IMG/VR virus record: IMGVR_UViG_3300035502_001146 | Reading direction: 5' to 3' (one strand) | Source: an uncultured virus (IMG/VR IMGVR_UViG_3300035502_001146) | Taxonomy: Duplodnaviria; Heunggongvirae; Uroviricota; Caudoviricetes | Length of the DNA: 64,000 nt | Shown here: piece by piece, positions 4,178 to 21,989 of the stretch | How positions within the stretch are numbered: the stretch's first letter is position 1 | How the letters are laid out: each line of letters starts with the position of its first letter | Made by a program: the position numbers and the translations under genes | The notes under the pieces: generated by a model | The model's database searches: none | Seen by the model: only the letters and a program-made list of their open reading frames with translations | Told to the model about the DNA's origin: nothing

Positions 4178-4380
4178 TAATTGCAATTTTATTATATATG
4201 CCTTGTTTGTACGCAAAGTCCTTCTCAGTTTACTAATTATAAACATAATGTTATAAAAAACAAATAGTACTAAGACTTTTTCCAAAACAAGCTTTATTGT
4301 CAAAGAAAGCAATCTTTCCATTAACGACAATATTTAAGGGAGGAGTTGAAATTCCCCTACCGTTCTCTCTTTCAAGAACA
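4178..4380 (-). ncRNA. Putative tracrRNA 2
   Basis: Diverged copy of 1425-1626; promoter at 4386-4414; loop AATTTCAA at 4346-4353; anti-repeat at 4180-4201. Confidence 0.8.
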
Positions 4381-4429
4381 GTTATATTATATCACACTTT
4401 CAATCTTTTGTCAATAGTTTTTAAAAAAA

Positions 4430-4840
4430 TTATTGAGCATATTTATAAATAAAATTATCTTCTGTTTCTGTAAAGTTTCTACTTAACTTATTATTATGCT
4501 TAACAATTTTTATTTCATCATAATTAAAAAACCAATCTGTAGAATAAACGCTATTTTTATCATCATTTTTAAGCAACCTAATTCTTAACTTATCTTTCTT
4601 AACCGCAGGGCAAATAAATATACCAAATTTTTTAATATTAGGTATATAAACAATATCTCCTGATTTAATTCTTTTCTTATATCCACTCCACCATTCTAAA
4701 TTAATATTTTTATCTGTTACTAAACCATTTATTATCTCTGATAAAGATGTATTAGATGCGTTTTCTTTCTCTACATAATTGTTCATTAAATAATTTTTAA
4801 ATTCATTTGTAATACTTTCAACTTCATTAATACTAAGCAT
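4430..4840 (-). CDS. Hypothetical protein
   Basis: 136-aa ORF with AGGAG RBS. Confidence 0.7.
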   Translation of the reverse strand: MLSINEVESITNEFKNYLMNNYVEKENASNTSLSEIINGLVTDKNINLEWWSGYKKRIKSGDIVYIPNIKKFGIFICPAVKKDKLRIRLLKNDDKNSVYSTDWFFNYDEIKIVKHNNKLSRNFTETEDNFIYKYAQ

Positions 4841-7625: not shown

Positions 7626-9818
7626 TTACAATAAATCTCCAACAAATTCATCAATATCATAAGGAGTAATAACTTTAATTAAAGGTTGATTGTTTTCTTC
7701 CCTCTTTTTGTTAAGCTCCGTAATATCTATTTGTTTGTTAGTAAAAATAACATCAGCGTTAGAAATATCATCAGTTTCAATTCCTCTTGCCTGAATATTA
7801 TATTTAACTAAATCATACATACTCATTCTGTTAGTATGGATAAAGTTATATAAAATAACCTGCAATGAATTTAAATGAGTTTCTACCATCTGAGTTTTTG
7901 GTGTAGCCTTTTGTTTCATATCACAATGAGCAATAGGGGCATCTACATAGATAATTTCCTTAGTTTCAATATCCATAATAAATGGTACTATATTCATTTC
8001 GTTGGTCGTTATAGCCATTTTATTAAAGACATTCTTAGGATTTATCTTACCTGTAAGTTCATTGGTATATCCAAATGTACAATTTAATTGACTAAATGGT
8101 ATTTTTGAAAACACATAAATCTGAGGAACAATATATTTAACATTATGTTTCCTAAGAGTTTCTACATATATGTCAATAAATTCAGCTGCACCCTCACCAT
8201 CGAAATCTCCACCGTCAGTAATATCTCCTGAATGTTTCATTCCCTCACATTTTAAATGAGTAAAATCAACATAATCTACACAAGTTAAATTTTCAGTAAA
8301 CAAACCACAAGATAAGTCTACATCAATTCTTGTACCATCTTCTGTATTAGTCCAATGGATAAAAGCTCTTAATTTATCGTAATCAAAACTTTCCCTACTG
8401 CCTCTTGTAATAATTCTACTTGTAGAATTACTTGTTCTTAAAGTATTGGGAATTGCAAAGTTTTTAAATTCATCAGATAAATAAACGTAGCCCATATAAT
8501 CTTTTTCCATATAAAGATTTACAAGAGCATTATTGCTTACCTGAACGATATAATCAATAAATTTACTCTTTAAATCATTACAAGTATTTAAGACTGCATA
8601 GGATTTACTTGAATTAGCTTTTACATTAAATACTCTTAATTCTTCTTTATTATAATTCTTAAAGAATGTAATAATAGAAATAAGAACAGGAGAGCTTAAC
8701 TTACTAACAATATTTTTATAAACATTCATAATATAATGAAGGTCTTTTTCTGTAAGGTCAGGCTTATTGATAAACTCATTTAATCTTCTTGCAAATTCTC
8801 CTGGTCTTGTTTTAAGTAAATCAACAGCAGGAATAATTTGATTATTCTTAATAAGATTATCAACCTTACCCATAAATGTATCAATATGCTCGCCATTTCT
8901 AAGCATAGAAATAGCTTTAAGGGCATAATCATACTGTTTAAAAGTACCTACATTTAATTTATAAGCTGCGGTTATCCAAAGGTTTTTCTTCTTATACATA
9001 TCTTCATAAGCATTGCTATTATTCTTAACAACAGTATTTAATAAAGATACGATAAATTTCTTTTCTCTATTTTTAAGGTTCTTAAAACGACACTGAGTAA
9101 CTAAAGAAATATCACCGTCAGATAACCCAACAATAAGTCTTAATACATCAGTCGTATTATTAAACCACTTAGTAGTATATAAAGATAAATCGTTTTGCAT
9201 AAGAAGCTTAGTAACAGCAATAAGATTTTCTTTAAAAGGAATTTCCTTAATAGAAAGAATAATATTACTATTAACAGAAACGGAGTTCTTTATATCTTCT
9301 AAGTCTTTATTAGATAAAGAAGTTTTAGAGCTAAGAAGATTTTTGATGATTTTTGCATAATCATCAGAAGTAGCCTTTTCTAATTTAATTAACTCTACAT
9401 TATCTTCTGATTCAATATCAGTTGATATATCATTCAATGTAGAATAATTAACATCAGCCCCCTTTAAAGATTTAAGAATATCATAAACTTCCATAAGAGT
9501 GTCTCTAATATGGTCTAATTTATAAAAAGTTAAATCATCAAAAGAAGAACCCAATGTATAACCTAATCTTTTGAAATATTCATTACAATCATTAATAACA
9601 TCTTTTTTACCAAGATAGTCAGGTACAAAAGCAATGTAAAAATCTTCAAGACTATTAAATTTTTCGTGATTGAGGTCTTTCAACTTACTATCTTCATTTA
9701 AGAAGTCAAGCAAATCTTCTTTATTTTTTGCTGCAACAAATGAATCATAAGCAAATTCTTTTTCAGTAACAATAAAAGAATTTTTTCTACGTAACAAAAC
9801 TTCATTCATTATATTCAT
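7626..9818 (-). CDS. Large helical protein with a C-terminal TerD-like domain
   Basis: RPGEFARRL, W...IDVDLS, HSGDIT...AAEFIDI motifs; start placed at ATG 9818 after GGAAGG. Confidence 0.7.
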   Translation of the reverse strand: MNIMNEVLLRRKNSFIVTEKEFAYDSFVAAKNKEDLLDFLNEDSKLKDLNHEKFNSLEDFYIAFVPDYLGKKDVINDCNEYFKRLGYTLGSSFDDLTFYKLDHIRDTLMEVYDILKSLKGADVNYSTLNDISTDIESEDNVELIKLEKATSDDYAKIIKNLLSSKTSLSNKDLEDIKNSVSVNSNIILSIKEIPFKENLIAVTKLLMQNDLSLYTTKWFNNTTDVLRLIVGLSDGDISLVTQCRFKNLKNREKKFIVSLLNTVVKNNSNAYEDMYKKKNLWITAAYKLNVGTFKQYDYALKAISMLRNGEHIDTFMGKVDNLIKNNQIIPAVDLLKTRPGEFARRLNEFINKPDLTEKDLHYIMNVYKNIVSKLSSPVLISIITFFKNYNKEELRVFNVKANSSKSYAVLNTCNDLKSKFIDYIVQVSNNALVNLYMEKDYMGYVYLSDEFKNFAIPNTLRTSNSTSRIITRGSRESFDYDKLRAFIHWTNTEDGTRIDVDLSCGLFTENLTCVDYVDFTHLKCEGMKHSGDITDGGDFDGEGAAEFIDIYVETLRKHNVKYIVPQIYVFSKIPFSQLNCTFGYTNELTGKINPKNVFNKMAITTNEMNIVPFIMDIETKEIIYVDAPIAHCDMKQKATPKTQMVETHLNSLQVILYNFIHTNRMSMYDLVKYNIQARGIETDDISNADVIFTNKQIDITELNKKREENNQPLIKVITPYDIDEFVGDLL

Positions 9819-12882: not shown

Positions 12883-13744
12883 TAAATAAATTTTTATAAA
12901 TAGAAAAGGACTACTTAATTGTAGTCCTTTTTCTTCCCATTTTTACAAAAGAGGTGGAAAGTTTTATTGCAAAAAATGTCTATGTTCTTATTATACCACA
13001 TTTTTTTATATTGTCAAGTACTTTTTTAAAATTTCTTTAGCAAAAAAATAGGTAATTATTTAAAATTACCTATCTCTTTGTATTGCATTTAGTCGTATGA
13101 AAATCAAACAGATTATGAAGCTTTTTTTAAAGCTAATTATATAATAACATATATTTTTATAATTGTCAATACTTTCCAAAATAATTTTTAATAAAAAATA
13201 GATGATTATATAAATAACCACCTACTTTTTTCTCTGTCTTGACTTTTTTTAATGAACAATTTTACCGTTAGGAGTTTTATCCATACACATATAGTAACAT
13301 ATAATATTATAAAAGTCAAGTACTATAATAATTTTTTTCAAAAAATAGAATTATCTATTATATTCGGTATGGCAATATCTATTTTTACTGTGCAAGACTT
13401 TTTTGCCATAGTAAAGTCTTTCCTTTCATATAATAGATTTTTATAATTTGGTTTGTTAAGGGGCAGTTCTTTGTGAGCTGCCTTTTTATTATGCAAAAAT
13501 AAATTATATAGAATTAAACAATTTATTAGAAATATAAATCATTACAAAAGAAAAAGACGTACCCACCCGAATGGTACGTCTTCCTCTTGATATACTAAAA
13601 TATTTACACAAGGAATAACTTTTTAAGAATCCCTTGCAAACTTAATTACAAGGGATTGATGATATTTTTTTATTTATCTTTTATACTACGAAATAATATT
13701 ATGCTTGAATGAATAAGTATTTTTTTAATTATCCATCTTCTATT

Positions 13745-14605
13745 ATCTTTTCTTTCAAAAGAAATATTGCACACCACTTGGAATAATGGCACGGTTTCAC
13801 CTTGTCTTTAGAAGAATTAATTCTAAAAAAGATTTAGGCTTCATTACTCATAATTGTAATCGCTTATTTCTGAACCGTTAGCATATATATAGAAAAATCT
13901 TTATAGGAGAAAGCTACAATATAAAAACAAATCTATACACATACACCCTATATACATAGGTTATATTAGGAATATTTTGGGTAAACAATGTTTGTTTTTC
14001 ATAGTACATTCAGATACCCTTTGTTGAAAAATATCAAAAACCAAAGGGTGATACCAACTTCCAATCCAAGAGGGAAGTCTTAACCTGTAACGATTTATAA
14101 AATACGTTAGGTCGTTTCTTAGAAAGTCTTTAAAAGATTTTTTTAGAAACAGTTTAACTTTTACTCTTATCTCCCGTTACTAAAGATAAGAAAATAAATC
14201 CGAAGGTCAACAATGATTTGATTCATTATTAGTTATCAGAATTATTATTAGATATTTCACATAAGGTCGTTAGTCTTATGCAGTTCTCAAAGAATAATTT
14301 CTTATTCTCACGAACTTCTTAATTTTAATAAATACAATTAAATTACCCTAATGGGGTATACCCTTAAAGGGTAGTTTTTCGGGAGTTGCGGAAGTTTCCC
14401 ATTTTGAAAAACTAATTATATTATTTATATATTAAGTTTCACTTTTGCATAGCACTTGCTATACAGAGAATTTAATTATCCTCTAAGTGTCCCATTGCAA
14501 TTATATGTAATTTTCATTACAAACGATACTTGGTTATCGTATCTTTTACCCCCTTACACAATGGGAAAGATAGTTATTTAAAACTATCTTCACTGTCCGT
14601 AGACA
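13745..14605 (-). ncRNA. Candidate large ornate ncRNA (GOLLD/ROOL-like class)
   Basis: ORF-free, with more than 15 hairpins; cUACGg and GAAA tetraloops on the minus strand; downstream of tRNA-Leu; terminator at ~13553-13585. Confidence 0.6.
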
Positions 14606-14751
14606 ATATTATAGTTTATGATTATTTGCTATTAACCAACCAATGTATTAGATAGATTTATTACAAATAATATTAAAAAAGTATATGTAATAGAAATAAT
14701 GCTTATCCAAAAACAAATAAAAACTATATATACTTTTTTATAAACTATAAA

Positions 14752-14833
14752 TGCGGATAACGGGAGTCGAACCCGTATGCTCACTGAGCCAGGCATTTTA
14801 AGTGCCTTATGTATACCATTCCATCACATCCGC
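14752..14833 (-). tRNA. tRNA-Leu(TAA)
   Basis: Cloverleaf, anticodon arm AGGCA-CTTAAAA-TGCCT, long variable arm, GGTTCGA; no encoded CCA. Confidence 0.93.
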
Positions 14834-16299
14834 TTATTCCCTTTATAATTATAAAAACATTCAAGGAACTTTTTTGACTAACAAAATTATATGTTTGCGT
14901 AAACAAAAAACTTATAACTACATTATGAAAGGAGGTCAATCATTCCACTATTATGAAAACTAAATTCACATATTAGTAATTCCTCAAATGTTTTATAATT
15001 ATTCAGGATTGATATTTGCAAATAGCCAAAATAAATTAAATATTGAAAGGAGGCTAGTCACTATGACTAATCCAAATAAAAAACTATTTTTAACACAAAT
15101 ATCAATTTTCAATGTACATAAGATAAATAAGAAATCTTATTCATCATTGTTAAGGCGTTTAATCACCTTACATATTGTATTATATAACAAAACTTTTATT
15201 TTGTCAAGTACTTTTTTAAAAATTTTTTAAAAATATTTTTTTATTTTTTAAAACCCTATAATTGCTTATATTTAAAAAGGCTTTTTAAAAAAATTTTTAT
15301 TTCCAAAAAAATATTTATTCAAACATTTATATCCCTTTTTATTTGTCTATATAAATTCTTTTCTATATGAAAACAATTAGAACTTCATATATAGAAAAAC
15401 TTATATGCACTTTACAAGTTGTTTCTATATCTACTCAAAAAAATAAATTTCCTTTAATAAGTAAATATATGATTCTTTACTATATTAAAGAAAATTTATA
15501 TTTAAGTATATTGAATATATAATAGAAGGTTCTTTATAAAAGGTTTTTAAGAGTGAATTTTTTTAATTGTTCCTCTATTGGAGAAATTCATTTACTTTAT
15601 ATTAAGTAAGATTAGAAAATTCTTCTTAATTTTCTTGACCGATTTAGATTTCAGTCAAAAAACAATTTCAAAAAATTTCAAAAAAAGTTTGATAATTAAA
15701 AATGTTCGATAATCAAATAGTTTGATTTTTCAAACCATTTCTGCATTATCACATTTTTTCTATAAGGCGTATAGCTTTTTCTTATCATATATGATTTTGA
15801 TTATAGATTTTATAACTTTAATGTTATATATCTATTTTTCTCTTCCTTTTTGCCTTACAGATACGATTATATCACGACTACCCATAAAAGTCAATAGATT
15901 TGTGCAAAATAAATAGATTTCGGTGTTTTTTACAAACTTTTAAGCCAAATAATGTACAATTTGCACAATATTAAAAATCGCTTATTAAACCATTTGTTAA
16001 GCTCATTTTTACCTAATTTATAATACATACACTATGGAATATTGAAAATAATTAAAAATTTAATATAATAGTTTTTTCTTATATATGTTATAATCAACCA
16101 TAATATTGGTAATTATTGGTAACTAATACCAAATTATTTCAATTGTTAAAAACTTGTACAATATTGTTAAATTTTTAACAATTTAGCTCACCTGTTTTTA
16201 TTAAATGGTTTAATAAGAAACGCCCTATTTTAGGGCGTTTTTGTAAAAAAATAAGACCGTTATATTTCAAACGGTCTTTGTAATTTTCCTCAGAACCCT

Positions 16300-16746
16300 T
16301 TATTTCTCAGGGTTTTGAACCTCCAACTCTTGACTTGTTACCTTTTCATATAAAGCAACAGAAGCAGGCTTAGTTTTTCTTTTTCTTTTTGGTTTTTCTT
16401 TACTTACTTTTAATTTTTCTAATAATTCATCAATTTCTTCTTCTTGTTTTTTTTCATCAATTATTTCTTTTTCTTCTTCATTTTCCACAGGAGATTCTGA
16501 ATCTGATTTAATCATACCTTTAATTGCCTTATCTATCAATGGTTTTTCAAAAATAATGAAATAAAGCACCAGTAGATTGACGAATGGTATTAATGCAATG
16601 AATAAATTCAGTAAAGTATACGCTGCATAACAAGCAGTTGAAACAGATTTGTTTTCTTTCTCAAGTTCCTGTATAAAATAACTCTTTCTTTTTTCTAAGT
16701 ATGCAAATATTAAAAGTACTATTATGTAAAAATATAAATTTCTCAT
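16300..16746 (-). CDS. Hypothetical membrane protein
   Basis: Two hydrophobic segments and a charged tail. Confidence 0.6.
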   Translation of the reverse strand: MRNLYFYIIVLLIFAYLEKRKSYFIQELEKENKSVSTACYAAYTLLNLFIALIPFVNLLVLYFIIFEKPLIDKAIKGMIKSDSESPVENEEEKEIIDEKKQEEEIDELLEKLKVSKEKPKRKRKTKPASVALYEKVTSQELEVQNPEK

Positions 16747-17300
16747 TTCTTTTCCTCTACTTTCTTTATAAGGTCATCTATTGATATGGGTCTGTATTCG
16801 TTATTCATTATTCCTACATTAATCATTTTACACGGAATATCTTTTTCCTTTAAATATTCTTTAAAGTACTGTATGTATTCGTCTTCAATAGAATTATGTA
16901 CGTGACCATAGCACATAATACCATTACTATGTTGGTGATTATAAAACAACATAGGATAATGAGATAAAACGAAAAGTTTATGGTTATATTTAAATTCGTG
17001 ATAATCCTTTATATCAATAAAACATTCCTTAAAGATATCTTTTTTATAATATTCATTGTCGTGATTTCCTTTTATTAATATTTTATTTCCTTTAAGCTGC
17101 TGTATGTTATTAACAATATCTTCTATATTAACGTGAAAAGAAATATCGCCTAATATATAAACCGTATCATTATTACTGACTGTTTTGTTCCAATTATTGA
17201 TTATAAAGTTATCCATCTCCTCAGTAGTTTCAAACGGACGTTTATCAAAGTTTATAACATTCTTATGCCCGAAATGTAAATCGCTTGTAAAATAAATCAT
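16743..17300 (-). CDS. Calcineurin-like metallophosphoesterase
   Basis: SDLHFGH, LGD, GNHD, SHYP and GHVH motifs. Confidence 0.9.
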   Translation of the reverse strand: MIYFTSDLHFGHKNVINFDKRPFETTEEMDNFIINNWNKTVSNNDTVYILGDISFHVNIEDIVNNIQQLKGNKILIKGNHDNEYYKKDIFKECFIDIKDYHEFKYNHKLFVLSHYPMLFYNHQHSNGIMCYGHVHNSIEDEYIQYFKEYLKEKDIPCKMINVGIMNNEYRPISIDDLIKKVEEKK

Positions 17301-17342: not shown

Positions 17343-17882
17343 TTAAAATACGACAGGAGTAACATAAAAGTTAAATTTATGGTCTGTTGCTTCGCATAAT
17401 TCCTTAATGAACTTTAATGCTTGATGTTTTCTTTTAAAGTAGAAATTCTTTTCATGGATACTATAATCTTCTCCAAGAACAAGATTTCTTCTTATATCTT
17501 TTTCCATCTGCCTGATTTCAGCAATGGTTAATTTCTTATCAAAACACAGCTCATCCAATGTTATATAATCTCTATTGAAAACCAAATAATTATTACCACG
17601 ATTACCAAGTACGTTCATACTTAAATTACCTGCGATAATATGATGTAACCATTTTTTCTTCAATACACCAAAAGCTTTTTGATTTTTAATAGAATAGGAA
17701 TTGAATGTTATTAAATCATCATATTTATCTAACAAAGAAGTTAAGTGCTTCTGTAATAATAAATTATATAGATAATCATAAGCATACCAATCCCAATTAA
17801 ACGATGGATAAAACATAAATTTATCTTTGTATTCTTCTCTATATGGAGAAGAATCATATCCAACGACTTTATAGACAGTCAT
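17343..17882 (-). CDS. Hypothetical protein (tandem paralog family A, divergent)
   Basis: ORF with RBS; weak similarity to 17986-21340. Confidence 0.65.
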   Translation of the reverse strand: MTVYKVVGYDSSPYREEYKDKFMFYPSFNWDWYAYDYLYNLLLQKHLTSLLDKYDDLITFNSYSIKNQKAFGVLKKKWLHHIIAGNLSMNVLGNRGNNYLVFNRDYITLDELCFDKKLTIAEIRQMEKDIRRNLVLGEDYSIHEKNFYFKRKHQALKFIKELCEATDHKFNFYVTPVVF

Positions 17883-17985
17883 TTCTAAACCTCCTTTCTA
17901 AACCCTCAGGATTGATTTTAAGAGGGTTTTAATATTTGATTGTGTATTTATTCATTGTTTATTTAAAAACCTCTTATATGACGTT

Positions 17986-18492
17986 TTAATCTCTTATACA
18001 GGTTATAAGCACGGTTGAAATATCATAGGTGGTTTCTAAGTAATCAGAAAATTCTTTTGCTGCTGATTTAGTAGTAAATGCTATAGATTCATCATCAATT
18101 ATATAGTCTTTATTTTCTTTAAAGTTTTTAATGATGATATTTTCTATATATTTACATTCTTTCATATCGAATTTCTTGTGTAAGTAGGAATAAAATAAAT
18201 CTCTACCCTTATTGAATAACAATCTATTTGTTTGGGTTTTCTCTATTTTCATTTTCTTATTTTGTAAGATTAAATGAAACACCCCTGCGGTTAGAGATTT
18301 AATTATTTCATCATTATATATTACAAATCTTTTGAATTTGTAACATTTAAATTTACTTATAATTTCATTAGCGGTATCAAAGGAACAATTTGTTTGTTTC
18401 ATTAGGTGTTTAGCATTAAATCCTTGATTTGGACTTGTTATTATATTACCATTCCAACTGTGAGGACATACAATATAAATATATTTAGCCAT
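17986..18492 (-). CDS. Hypothetical protein (family A)
   Basis: FHL...LLFN...EC.YI motif. Confidence 0.7.
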   Translation of the reverse strand: MAKYIYIVCPHSWNGNIITSPNQGFNAKHLMKQTNCSFDTANEIISKFKCYKFKRFVIYNDEIIKSLTAGVFHLILQNKKMKIEKTQTNRLLFNKGRDLFYSYLHKKFDMKECKYIENIIIKNFKENKDYIIDDESIAFTTKSAAKEFSDYLETTYDISTVLITCIRD

Positions 18493-18496
18493 AGAA

Positions 18497-19006
18497 TTAT
18501 ACCTCCTGAACCATTACAATAAATTCACCATACGCCTGATATATTGTTCTTATATAATTAATAAATTCTTGTGCTGCTTGTTCTTCTTGAAAATAAAAAG
18601 CAAAATCTATTATTTCATAATCAATATCTTCTTTATATTTAGAAAAAACATTATCAACCATATCAAATTCTTCTTTGGTTAAAATATTGTTTACAAAACA
18701 ATAATTAGGTGGTAATCCATTATATCTTAACTTATCGCTTTCAACAGGAGTGTTGATTTCTATCCCATTTATTACTAAATGAAATAGCTCTTTATTTAAA
18801 TCATCAATAATTTTATTATTGAGTATTTTATAGTCTTTAATAATTAAAGAATCATAAAGGGCTAATTTATGTAAAAACATAAGTAAATAAATAGGATAAT
18901 AAGAAATTTTGTAATTAGGTAAATATTTTACCAAGCTACTAAAACAACTTATTCTACTGCAATATTTATTGTCTAATCTTTTTTCATACAAATAGTAATA
19001 TTTCAT
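18497..19006 (-). CDS. Hypothetical protein (family A)
   Basis: LFHLVINGI motif. Confidence 0.7.
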   Translation of the reverse strand: MKYYYLYEKRLDNKYCSRISCFSSLVKYLPNYKISYYPIYLLMFLHKLALYDSLIIKDYKILNNKIIDDLNKELFHLVINGIEINTPVESDKLRYNGLPPNYCFVNNILTKEEFDMVDNVFSKYKEDIDYEIIDFAFYFQEEQAAQEFINYIRTIYQAYGEFIVMVQEV

Positions 19007-19023
19007 ATTATTCCTTCCTGTAT

Positions 19024-19560
19024 TTAAAATCTAACCTTTTTTGGTCTTTCTTCAAGCAAATAAGTATAATTAATATTATCTATAAAGCTAATAGCAAATT
19101 CATAATTCTTACTTTTAACCACATTATCCAAGTAATTCATTATATCAAAGCTATTCTGTTTACCTTTAAAGAAAACTTCTTTATCGCAACAAATTACATT
19201 TTTATTTGCCAATATATATTTACTTAAATTATTACATTCTCTAAGAGAAAAATCTTTTGCTAAATAAAAATAAGCCAATGATTCCTGTCCATCAAATAAT
19301 AAATGATTATCTTCATCTATAGTTATATTTAGATTTATTCCCTGTAATGTTAAATGAAATGTATGGGCTTTTAAATCTTCCAATACTTCCTCTTTATTAT
19401 CTACAACTTTAAATCTATTAAACATTATATTCCTATTGCTTAATATTTTGGTTGTGTCATCTTCATTAGTAAGACTACAAATATCATTATATGTAACAGT
19501 ACTATATTCCCATCTATAATTTATGTTTTTTATTTTTTGAATTGAATATAGCTTTATCAC
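19024..19560 (-). CDS. Hypothetical protein (family A)
   Basis: FNRF...FHLTLQGI...LLF...SLA.FYL...ECN motif. Confidence 0.75.
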   Translation of the reverse strand: MIKLYSIQKIKNINYRWEYSTVTYNDICSLTNEDDTTKILSNRNIMFNRFKVVDNKEEVLEDLKAHTFHLTLQGINLNITIDEDNHLLFDGQESLAYFYLAKDFSLRECNNLSKYILANKNVICCDKEVFFKGKQNSFDIMNYLDNVVKSKNYEFAISFIDNINYTYLLEERPKKVRF

Positions 19561-19583
19561 TTTTTAAATCCCCTTTCTATAAT

Positions 19584-20129
19584 TTATCCTACTTGTTCTT
19601 TGTATGCCCCTTTTTCATCATAATAATTATATTGTTCTCCATCTACAACTACTGCAAATGTTGTATTGGTGAATATTCCATCATTAATAAATGAGGTTAA
19701 TATTTTAGCGGTAATATAATTTTTAAAGAAAAGTTCAGCATCATAAACAAATATATCTTCATTTAATTCTTTTTCAATATACTTAGTTATATGGTTGCAT
19801 TCTCTAAGATTTAAAGTTTTGTTTATATAAATACCTGCCAATGTATTACTACCATTAAATAATAAATGATTATTTTCATCAATAGTTATTTTTATATCTA
19901 TTCCACGTAATAAAAAATGTAAAGTACGGGCTTTTAGTTTGTCAAGAACTTCTTTTTGATTTTTAATCACCATATATCTATTAAATAACATAGTTTTATT
20001 CCAATCAACAAGAGATTCAAATTTTTTCTCTCCTAATATATTACTGCATTTATTGAAAGTAAGTATTTTAAGTTTATATTCTACTTTAACCCAAGTTGAT
20101 TGGTGTATTGTGTATAAATATTTATTCAT
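19584..20129 (-). CDS. Hypothetical protein (family A)
   Basis: Same motif as its neighbours. Confidence 0.75.
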   Translation of the reverse strand: MNKYLYTIHQSTWVKVEYKLKILTFNKCSNILGEKKFESLVDWNKTMLFNRYMVIKNQKEVLDKLKARTLHFLLRGIDIKITIDENNHLLFNGSNTLAGIYINKTLNLRECNHITKYIEKELNEDIFVYDAELFFKNYITAKILTSFINDGIFTNTTFAVVVDGEQYNYYDEKGAYKEQVG

Positions 20130-20146
20130 AGTTTTACTCCTTTATA

Positions 20147-20737
20147 TTAATCATGTATATCTTTTGTTTTTCTAAATTCACTAAATCCTGTTATTATATA
20201 ATCATAATCCATACTTCCTATACTCATAATTGATTCTCTATCAATATTACATATTGAAGCTATATTGTTAGTTATACAAATTATATCCTTTGGTTTTCTA
20301 AAGAAGAACTCTTTATCATAACATATAATATCGTCCTCTTTATCAAGTGTCTTTGATATATATTTGCATTGATTAAAACTTAATCTACCATTTAAGTATA
20401 ACTTAGCTAATGAATGGTCGTCATTAAACAATAAATTATCATTTTCATCAATACTCATTTTTATATCTACATCTTGCAACTTTAAATAAAAGCTTACAGA
20501 ATTAAGAGATTTAACGACTTCTTCTTTATTATCTACTACCTTATATTTGTTAAAGAATATCACCTTAGGTTTATAATTATTTATTACATTAAGAATATCT
20601 TCGTGGTTGTTTAATTTTTTTATATCATTATAAGTAAGTATTTTTCCATTGTATCTATAACCCCATTTATCTTTTGGTATATCATCTATTTTTTTCATAC
20701 TTGCAATTGTATATAGATTTTTATAATTAAACTTCAT
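20147..20737 (-). CDS. Hypothetical protein (family A)
   Basis: Same motif as its neighbours. Confidence 0.75.
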   Translation of the reverse strand: MKFNYKNLYTIASMKKIDDIPKDKWGYRYNGKILTYNDIKKLNNHEDILNVINNYKPKVIFFNKYKVVDNKEEVVKSLNSVSFYLKLQDVDIKMSIDENDNLLFNDDHSLAKLYLNGRLSFNQCKYISKTLDKEDDIICYDKEFFFRKPKDIICITNNIASICNIDRESIMSIGSMDYDYIITGFSEFRKTKDIHD

Positions 20738-20749
20738 ATTTTCCTCTCC

Positions 20750-21340
20750 TTATATGTAACTATATCCTGCGAAATTACCATTCATTATTTCTAAGTAAAT
20801 TTCTCTATTTATATCCTTAACAAATAAGTTTTTACTATAGACATCATTAAGAATTGACTTTACCAAATCATAAGCATCTGTTCTTTTATTAAAGAATATT
20901 TCTTTATCAGAACAAACTATATTATCTTTTAATTCTTTTTCAATATAATTGGTTATGTAATTGCATTGTTTAAGAGTTAATTCATTATTCAGGTAAAAAT
21001 AAGCTAATGAATATTTATTACCAAACATTAAATTATTAGTATTATCAATACTTACACTTAGATTTATTCCCTGCAATTTAAAACAAAAGACGTGACTATT
21101 TAATTTATCTATTGCTTCTTTCTTATTAAGAAGCTCTTTTTGATTATGTATTACATTATATCTATTAAAACACACAGTCTTTATGTTTAATAATTTATCA
21201 TTGATTTTAGCTTCATTCGAAATATTACATAGTCTATTATATGTTAATTCATTTGCTTTCCAAGTTAATTTTAATTCTTCAAAAGCAGTACCATTAGCTA
21301 AATAAAATTCGGCTAATGTAAATAAATTTTTAGTAGCCAT
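20750..21340 (-). CDS. Hypothetical protein (family A)
   Basis: Same motif; promoter upstream. Confidence 0.75.
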   Translation of the reverse strand: MATKNLFTLAEFYLANGTAFEELKLTWKANELTYNRLCNISNEAKINDKLLNIKTVCFNRYNVIHNQKELLNKKEAIDKLNSHVFCFKLQGINLSVSIDNTNNLMFGNKYSLAYFYLNNELTLKQCNYITNYIEKELKDNIVCSDKEIFFNKRTDAYDLVKSILNDVYSKNLFVKDINREIYLEIMNGNFAGYSYI

Positions 21341-21428
21341 TTTTAATTTTCTCCTTTTGCTTTAATTTACATTTATTATACCACAATATTTATTATTTGT
21401 CAAATAAAAAATAGGTGAAATTATTCAC

Positions 21429-21989
21429 CTATAAAGTAATGATTTGTTTATTAGTAGTATCTATCCCCATACAATTAACGTGTATATTGTTATTTATCTT
21501 ATTATTAAATAATTCAATTTTTAAGAACTTTTCTACTTCTGACTTAGCTCTTAATATTTCTTCTTTATCATCAAAGTAAAAACAATTAGAAAAAAGTTCT
21601 TTCTTAATAAACGGTAAATTACATATATCTCTATTTACTTTAATTAAGAAATCTATATCATCAAATAAAAAGAATGGAGTTCTAAATTCAAAACCATCTT
21701 TCCAAAAAGTAACAGTACTAAATTGTTCTATTACTTTTATCTCTACATTTTCAATGGCTAATATTAATCCTACATCACATATTTTCTTTCTGTTAAGAAA
21801 AGATATATCCATTCCCTTATAGTTTTTCTTGACAAAATAATCAGGATAATCATCAGTATGTTCAACCCAATAATCATATAAATAAAAATTGTTATATTTA
21901 AATAAGATATTATTTACTTTTTTCCTACACTCATAAATTTCTTCGTGAGTTAAATGAGAAATATTTATATGTAATTTATATAAAACCAT
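21429..21989 (-). CDS. Hypothetical protein
   Basis: ORF with AGGAGG RBS. Confidence 0.65.
   Translation of the reverse strand: MVLYKLHINISHLTHEEIYECRKKVNNILFKYNNFYLYDYWVEHTDDYPDYFVKKNYKGMDISFLNRKKICDVGLILAIENVEIKVIEQFSTVTFWKDGFEFRTPFFLFDDIDFLIKVNRDICNLPFIKKELFSNCFYFDDKEEILRAKSEVEKFLKIELFNNKINNNIHVNCMGIDTTNKQIITL

What the first reader, a model, noticed from the sequence alone, without database searches (positions are those of the whole stretch)
13553..14750. About 0.9-kb ornate non-coding RNA, probably co-transcribed with tRNA-Leu
Seen: an ORF-free region with dense nested helices (e.g. TCCCATTG 14490-14497 with CAATGGGA 14559-14566; ACCCTTTG/CAAAGGGT; ACGGTT/AACCGT) and stable tetraloops that read correctly on the minus strand (GUC-UACG-GAC at 14595-14604; GAAA loops at 14507-14520 and 14292-14307). 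Promoter at 15179-15207, terminator at ~13553-13585. Known: GOLLD and ROOL are large structured RNAs often found near tRNAs in Firmicutes phages. I cannot assign the family by eye.
Basis: partly seen in the sequence, partly recalled or inferred. Interest (0 to 1): 0.7.

Follow-up and report, generated by a model that had tools for sequence, protein, structure and literature searches.

The report
Phage RNA built from intron parts
A jumbo gut phage appears to make a roughly 1,000-base folded RNA, right behind a tRNA gene, that contains pieces of self-splicing introns in back-to-front order but lacks their catalytic centre, so it may be a selfish intron turned into a new kind of non-coding RNA.

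Summary
Real, structured, most likely transcribed; not GOLLD or ROOL. The RNA spans about 14725 to 13682 (minus strand, 1.04 kb), 27 nt behind tRNA-Leu(UAA). Contigs from 4 of 4 gut metatranscriptomes cover it with no differences; neighbouring genes are uncovered (no DNA run laid). One homolog was found, behind the same tRNA in a syntenic 379-kb phage record: 71% identity over 735 nt, with compensated helices.

It is a mosaic of group I intron domains. A 3'-end P9.1-P9.2 module (14326-14256, E 5e-9) comes first, then a P3.1-P3.2-P4-P5-P6 module (about 13960-13769; profile hit 13887-13787, E 5e-18). The catalytic P7 helix and terminal G are missing in both copies, whereas 12 of 13 and 38 of 39 other carriers of these motifs have P7 strands. 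An 11-15 bp helix clamps the 3' end. No splice or circle junction was seen.

Best reading (0.5): a catalytically dead, domesticated intron-derived RNA acting as an abundant structural or decoy RNA. Rivals: neutral relic (0.22), domain-shuffled ribozyme or trans scaffold (0.15). Only two members are known. The scan's earlier notes held no look-alike.

The parts
15179..15207 (-). sigma-70/sigma-A-type promoter (TTGACA-17-TATAAT)
   Evidence: 12/12 match; same promoter at L005 7899-7870
14834..15172 (-). 5' leader of the inferred tRNA-plus-RNA transcript
   Evidence: inferred from the promoter; one 153-nt identical RNA contig at 15003-15155, depth 3.8, in 1 of 4 runs
14752..14833 (-). tRNA-Leu(UAA), no intron, no encoded CCA
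13682..14725 (-). the large RNA, about 1.04 kb; ends inferred
   Evidence: identical RNA contigs end at 14696/14725/14724/14724 and 13686/13701/13703/13693 in 4 runs; clamp helix ends at 13682
14440..14608 (-). 5' domain: helices H1 (UACG loop), H2, H3, H4 with an AAGU-loop hairpin; origin unclear, possibly a worn P7.1/P7.2
   Evidence: predicted in both homologs with compensatory changes; only a weak 8.6-bit, E 0.07 model hit in the homolog and 1.7 bits in the window
14318..14436 (-). long irregular helix H5 enclosing a multibranch loop, in the place of intron P9
   Evidence: folds in both homologs; G-C/A-U exchange
14256..14326 (-). group I intron P9.1-P9.2 module (3' end of a phage intron subclass); no terminal G follows at the usual distance
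   Evidence: nhmmer E 4.9e-9; covariance model 39.6 bits; matches EF1 phage intron end
14016..14246 (-). middle domain of conserved hairpins; 14034-14014 weakly resembles intron P9
   Evidence: 18/21 identity to P9 of an intact intron in the related phage, E 0.04
13997..14008 (-). 5' strand of clamp helix PX
   Evidence: 11 pairs at probability 0.75-0.91; 15 bp at 0.98 in the homolog, with 3 extra nt on both strands
13881..13960 (-). intron hairpins P3.1 and P3.2
   Evidence: same order and GGGTGT junction as intact introns; P3.2 13 bp, 5 one-sided compatible changes
13769..13878 (-). group I intron P4-P5-P6 domain with J6/7, ending exactly where P7 should begin
   Evidence: nhmmer E 5.3e-18; 80% identity to an intact intron of the related phage; GTGCA followed by no GAC(T/C)A
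13708..13766 (-). two 3' hairpins in place of the catalytic core
13682..13693 (-). 3' strand of clamp helix PX; G14007.U13683 wobble near its end
13628..13657 (-). conserved hairpin beyond the covered RNA (processing or termination signal)
   Evidence: -16.4 and -17.9 kcal/mol in window and homolog
13546..13588 (-). intrinsic terminator
   Evidence: hairpin plus U tract in window and, with a different stem sequence, in the homolog

Best explanation
A domesticated, catalytically dead RNA built from peripheral and scaffold domains of group I introns, made by a jumbo phage as a stable non-coding RNA. Steps: (1) a strong host-type promoter transcribes leader, tRNA-Leu and RNA as one unit to the terminator (promoter and terminator shown; co-transcription shown as a contig for the homolog only). 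(2) tRNA 3' processing, probably RNase Z since CCA is not encoded, frees the RNA; the ends are trimmed to about 14725 and to the PX clamp at about 13682 (inferred). (3) The RNA folds into many helices, keeping an intact P4-P6 and P9.1-P9.2 but no P7 guanosine site (homology shown; fold predicted and partly compensated). (4) It does not splice. It works by shape and abundance, as GOLLD and ROOL are thought to: self-assembling through its loops or soaking up host RNA-binding proteins or nucleases during infection (inferred, untested). Origin: a decayed run of tandem introns like those in the related phage, with core deletions, then fixed by new pairings such as PX (inferred).
For: RNA contigs identical to 13686-14725 at depth 9-83 in 4 of 4 runs laid; 9 of 19 listed runs hold 0.44-0.66 of the words. 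Homolog 71% identical over 735 nt in a phage whose matched genes are mostly 63-94% identical, with no match of 60 nt or more in 14339-16141. Of 147 gap-free predicted pairs in the alignable part, 114 still pair in the homolog against 68-78 of about 147 when slid. In 15 hand-registered helices, 97 pairs: 77 same, 10 one-sided, 10 two-sided changes (trimmed to what pairs in both). PX, which joins sequence outside the profile-matched intron pieces, gains 3 nt on both strands in the homolog. No P7: best strand-pair scores -3.8 and 3.5 against 32.6-43 for intact introns and 3.8 +/- 5 for shuffles. No splice joint of the window's RNA. The related phage holds 15 intron cores, 9 within 5 kb.
Against: Only two members, so covariation cannot be tested statistically; two-sided changes in the automatic mapping (9) do not exceed slid controls (7-16), and 33 of 147 pairs break. 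The P7 scorer also gave a divergent real intron only 5.2, so it misses odd cores. No DNA run was laid, and contigs show neither strand, ends nor level. No function, partner or oligomer is shown. Other spacers of this genome also fold better than shuffles.
Confidence: 0.5

Rival explanations
1. Neutral relic: a decaying run of group I introns behind a strongly transcribed tRNA; it accumulates only because intron domains resist nucleases and has no selected function.
For: Both recognisable pieces are intron parts cut off at the core. The lineage is intron-rich and the homolog's tRNA-Leu carries its own intron with an imperfect P7. Only two members in all scans.
Against: Conservation at the level of protein genes while the adjacent spacer is not alignable; compensated helices and a compensated indel in PX outside the matched intron pieces; both versions appear as deep contigs in one run.
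Confidence: 0.22
2. Domain-shuffled ribozyme or trans-acting scaffold: the RNA is a naturally permuted group I ribozyme (3' part, spacer, 5' part) with a non-standard core that cuts or circularises itself, or it lends its complete P4-P6 domain to introns elsewhere.
For: Order is that of permuted intron-exon constructs. P4-P6 is complete through J6/7. PX has P1-like geometry, with a G.U pair where contigs end. The homolog's middle domain holds CAACGACUG and UAGUCU, its best-scoring P7-like pair, and a P1-like U.G hairpin at 6466-6447.
Against: That P7-like pair scores 3.5, reached by 17 of 40 shuffles, and is not kept in the window. No terminal G after P9.2 in either copy. No joint or back-joint in 4 runs, though contigs drop rare forms. 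The 15 cores in the related phage have a P4-like motif upstream: 14 by pattern, the last by eye.
Confidence: 0.15
3. A very remote GOLLD, ROOL or other known large RNA that was hit by introns whose remains stayed in place.
For: Size and place behind a tRNA in a Firmicutes-type phage fit GOLLD and ROOL (PMC12990946, passages read).
Against: No match to any of 4227 Rfam families other than tRNA below E 0.07; none to GOLLD or ROOL in the homolog's record at E 10, with a working ROOL control.
Confidence: 0.08

Closest known systems
Phage group I introns (subclass with P3.1/P3.2 and subclass ending in P9.1/P9.2; e.g. L166, L001, Enterococcus phage EF1 intron L002)
   Same: P3.1-P3.2-P4-P5-P6 and P9.1-P9.2 are homologous in sequence and pairing.
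   Different: Pieces lie 3' module first; they come from two subclasses in the sets examined; no P7, P3 or terminal G; no host reading frame; the RNA is seen unspliced.
GOLLD (RF02032) and ROOL (RF03087) RNAs
   Same: Large, multi-helix, next to tRNA genes in phages (PMC12990946, passages); function by structure is the working analogy.
   Different: No covariance-model match; longer than the 550-833 nt examples listed there; contains intron domains.
Lariat-capping ribozyme GIR1 (PMC3679873, passages; PMC2219692, search listing)
   Same: A group I descendant that took a new role.
   Different: GIR1 is a 180-200-nt catalytic RNA of eukaryotic rDNA introns; this RNA is 1 kb, in a phage, and has lost the core.
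Back-spliced ND5-717 intron (PMC6545197, abstract) and circularly permuted group II RNAs (PMC8637638, passages)
   Same: Intron domains in permuted order on a natural transcript; CP group II RNAs average about 900 nt.
   Different: Both splice and give circles. Here no catalytic core or circle was found, and no group II family matched.

Membership tests
Group I intron | P4-P5-P6 domain | tested here: met
   nhmmer E 5e-18, 80% identity to an intact intron
Group I intron | P7 helix with the G-C guanosine site, flanked by J6/7 and J8/7 | tested here: not met
   scores at shuffle level in both copies; no profile or model hit. The scorer is weak on divergent cores (5.2 for the homolog's tRNA intron).
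Group I intron | P3 pseudoknot and P8 | tested here: inconclusive
   no complement found by eye at the P3 position in either copy; several hairpins could be worn P8; no formal test
Group I intron | terminal G at the 3' splice site after P9.2 | tested here: not met
   next G lies 17-19 nt after the GAA, against 10 nt or less in the 16 intact examples
Group I intron | domains in 5'-to-3' order inside a host gene, removed by splicing | tested here: not met
   P9 module precedes P4-P6; no frame over 31 codons; no joint in 4 runs
Group I intron | self-splicing activity | not testable with these tools
   needs in vitro assay
GOLLD | match to the conserved 3' domain model RF02032 | tested here: not met
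   no true positive control was run (5 of 14 control genomes rang below cut-off)
GOLLD | location beside tRNA genes in a phage | tested here: met
ROOL | match to RF03087 | tested here: not met
   positive control pMP118 scored 130 bits
GOLLD/ROOL | RNA-only oligomeric cage | not testable with these tools
   needs mass photometry or cryo-EM
Circularly permuted group II RNA | group II domain V/VI match | tested here: not met
   no group II family listed up to E 10; the ACGGUUC word is P4 of group I introns

The most novel reading that the evidence does not exclude
A natural domain-shuffled group I ribozyme: the RNA keeps a complete P4-P6 scaffold and a P1-like clamp with a G.U pair at its own 3' end, and uses a non-standard or borrowed core to cut its own 3' end, to circularise, or to assist other phage introns in trans.
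Probability: 0.15. Interest if true: 0.92.

Novelty: new variant of a known kind. Interest (0 to 1): 0.7.

Why it matters
Large ornate phage RNAs such as GOLLD and ROOL have no known origin or function. This RNA shows a traceable origin: parts of selfish group I introns, with an intact relative of the donor intron in the same phage lineage. If it is selected, it is a direct case of intron domestication into a non-catalytic bacterial-virus RNA, and the two natural versions give a ready comparison for folding, assembly and catalysis tests. If it still reacts, it would be a natural rearranged group I ribozyme in a phage, of interest for circular-RNA tools.

Tried and rejected
Homolog searches: blastn of phages gave 6 records and of plasmids 33, none covering 80%; the three followed to real intron-like matches were L001-L003, and L004 was an AT-rich chance hit. 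The permuted-order pattern gave 7 viral loci, 6 of them chance. The metagenome scan gave 1 and the genome scans 0 and 1, all chance coding DNA. The H4 pattern gave 3, two of them chance; the long-P9.1 pattern gave only the homolog. Protein-led search found the homolog with PhoH and nothing with the 756-aa neighbour. No own genome is held.

By-eye core assignments dropped: P3 between 13890 and 14505 (that strand belongs to P3.2); a pseudoknot from the H4 loop to the 3' end (PX pairs better); H4 or H2 as a flipped P7, and a middle-domain P7 (shuffle-level scores). PX as a trans guide: only 2 other perfect complements in the window and 1 in the related record, both unremarkable.

In one search the rows P3.1, P4 and T1 were mis-registered by one base and were left out of the count; M1 was dropped because its register is ambiguous; one search's counts are not used. 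Uncovered flanks prove nothing alone. A covariance model of the whole P3.1-type intron was not obtained, so that subclass's core was tested only with sequence profiles and the strand scorer.

Full report
SETTING. The window is 26% G+C. Of 14 proteins scanned, PHROGs matched PhoH, a phosphoesterase, a DNA polymerase processivity factor and a transposase among others. The best PhoH matches among cultured phages are Bacillus jumbo phages at 39-44% identity. PhoH led to one relative, L005, in a 379-kb viral record, G001, which is largely collinear with the window. A jumbo phage of a low-GC Firmicute in an animal gut is the likely source (inference).

OBSERVATION. Every motif quoted is in place. 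The region has no ATG frame over 31 codons and folds better on the minus strand (z -6.95 against -5.07). Promoter and terminator are real and kept in the homolog. The folding score is less special than it looks: five other ORF-poor stretches score -2.1 to -4.7, and the RNA's 3' half only -2.1.

EXPRESSION. Nineteen runs were listed; 9 gut metatranscriptomes hold 0.44-0.66 of the words (probably one campaign). In the 4 laid, contigs with no differing letter cover 13686-14696, 13701-14725, 13703-14724 (two pieces) and 13693-14724 (two pieces, 33-nt gap), at depths 8.5-83. Three of four stop at 14724-14725. PhoH, the tRNA and the genes at 16300-17300 have no matching contig. These are contigs found with this stretch, no DNA run was laid, and strand is not shown, so this is strong evidence of presence in RNA libraries and a weaker hint of ends and level. 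No joint within the window's own RNA was reported. The two joints listed belong to record 7 of run X3, a 1563-nt contig whose matched blocks fall exactly on L005 positions 7146, 6787 and 6372 if it starts at 7788. It begins 6 nt inside the homolog's tRNA, keeps that tRNA's intron unspliced and runs into the element, which fits co-transcription.

NOT A KNOWN FAMILY. Rfam gives only three tRNAs in the window at gathering score and, in 13000-15300, 18 matches up to E 10, of which only the tRNA is significant. GOLLD and ROOL models find nothing in G001 at E 10; the ROOL model finds the known copy on pMP118 at 130 bits.

INTRON PARTS. Weak BLAST hits pointed to introns: 14288-14256 matches the sequence behind an HNH gene annotated as a phage intron in Enterococcus phage EF1, and 13886-13789 matches the sequence between a helicase and a GIY-YIG gene on a Clostridium plasmid. 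Profiles built from 19, 25 and 23 intron segments then gave two hits in the window and no others in 64 kb: P9.1-P9.2 at 14326-14256 (E 5e-9) and P3.2-P6 at 13887-13787 (E 5e-18); the P7-P9 profile of the second subclass gave none. In the homolog the second hit reaches back through P3.1. The P4-P5 part is 79-80% identical to an intact intron at G001 123.8-124.1 kb. Segment names follow standard group I nomenclature (recalled) applied to these alignments.

THE CORE IS MISSING. Of 13 viral loci with this P4-P6 pattern, 12 continue into GAC(T/C)A; the exception is the homolog, and the window behaves like it. Of 39 loci with the P9.2 motif, 38 have the 3' P7 strand upstream; the exception is again the homolog. 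A covariance model of P7-P9.2 scores only the P9 end (39.6 and 41.8 bits); its next hits are 8.6 bits or less in the window and 9.4 or less in L005, including an 8.6-bit P7.1/P7.2-like hit at L005 6964-6890. A weight-matrix search for P7 strand pairs gives -3.8 and 3.5, against 32.6-43 for 31 intact introns; allowing any complementary P7 gives 6.2 and 1.7, reached by 12 and 38 of 40 shuffles. That scorer rated the homolog's divergent tRNA intron only 5.2, so an unusual core is not excluded. The terminal G after P9.2 is absent in both.

CONSERVED STRUCTURE. Both RNAs fold into the same series of helices. Clear exchanges include GUC-UACG-GAC against GAC-UACG-GUC, A-U to C-G in H4, and A-U to G-C in H5 and P9.1a. 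Fifteen hand-registered helices hold 97 pairs: 77 same, 10 one-sided and 10 two-sided changes; none is broken, by construction. The automatic mapping is less flattering: 114 of 147 pairs survive against 68-78 when slid, but two-sided changes (9) do not exceed the slid controls. The most telling helix is PX, 14008-13998 with 13682-13692. It closes the P4-P6 half, ends where contigs end, and is 15 bp in the homolog with three extra bases on each strand.

MECHANISM. Shown: sequence anatomy, intron homology, absence of a standard P7, presence in RNA libraries. Inferred: one transcript from the promoter, release by tRNA 3' processing, trimming to PX, and a non-catalytic role by shape and abundance (0.5). 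The likely source is a decayed run of tandem introns; G001 has 15 cores, 9 of them within 5 kb, and the homolog's tRNA-Leu itself carries an intron. Rivals: neutral relic (0.22), shuffled ribozyme or trans scaffold (0.15), remote GOLLD/ROOL (0.08). That isolated P4-P6 can complement a P3-P9 domain in trans, and that changes at the P7 G-C pair alter the nucleoside bound, are recalled from the Tetrahymena literature and come from no call.

LITERATURE. Ten searches listed no paper on a core-less, intron-derived phage RNA; the library lacks most subscription journals. Read: passages of PMC12990946, PMC8637638 and PMC3679873; the abstract of PMC6545197; only the listing of PMC2219692. No supplements were opened; tables of large surveys of candidate structured RNAs in phages could hold fragments of this RNA. 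The scan's own notes had no look-alike by sequence and, by words, only other kinds of RNA.

VERDICT. A real, previously unclassified 1-kb phage RNA made partly of group I intron domains in reversed order, without the catalytic helix. It works most plausibly like GOLLD or ROOL but is not a member, and it descends from group I introns but fails their defining tests. Two members only; interest 0.7.

Noticed in passing
L005 7794-7118 (minus): tRNA-Leu(UAA) with a 592-nt group I intron in the anticodon (CUU|AAAA; ARAGORN calls it Phe). Its P7 strands are imperfect and an RNA contig shows it unspliced. The window's tRNA has no intron.
   Followed up: partly
window 12900-13345 (minus): Three repeats about 150 nt apart, each a near-perfect promoter (13319, 13169, 13017) followed by about 90 nt without a reading frame and a hairpin, facing the end of PhoH. 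Looks like an array of small RNAs; no identical RNA contig in the 4 runs.
   Followed up: no
window 14916-15060: Two similar 27-nt stretches with GAAAGGAGG on plus (anti-Shine-Dalgarno-like on the tRNA leader), each ahead of a short plus-strand ATG frame; possible antisense or small-peptide unit.
   Followed up: no
G001 123800-129000 (L218): Nine group I intron cores within about 5 kb, separated by short exons; further clusters at 308.9-312 kb and 375-379 kb.
   Followed up: partly
window 14369-14416: In 2 of 4 runs contigs break here and the 5' third has lower depth (8.5-10) than the rest (29-69); may be an internal processing site or a library effect.
   Followed up: no
window 17343-21989 (minus): Run of similar-sized 165-196 aa reading frames in tandem, possibly a paralog array.
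   Followed up: no
L003 2700-3040: A compact group I intron-like sequence with full core lies in an unannotated stretch ahead of a transposase-like frame in Acetoanaerobium noterae, with a RAGATH-18 RNA at 4379-4440; resembles an IStron arrangement (label recalled).
   Followed up: no
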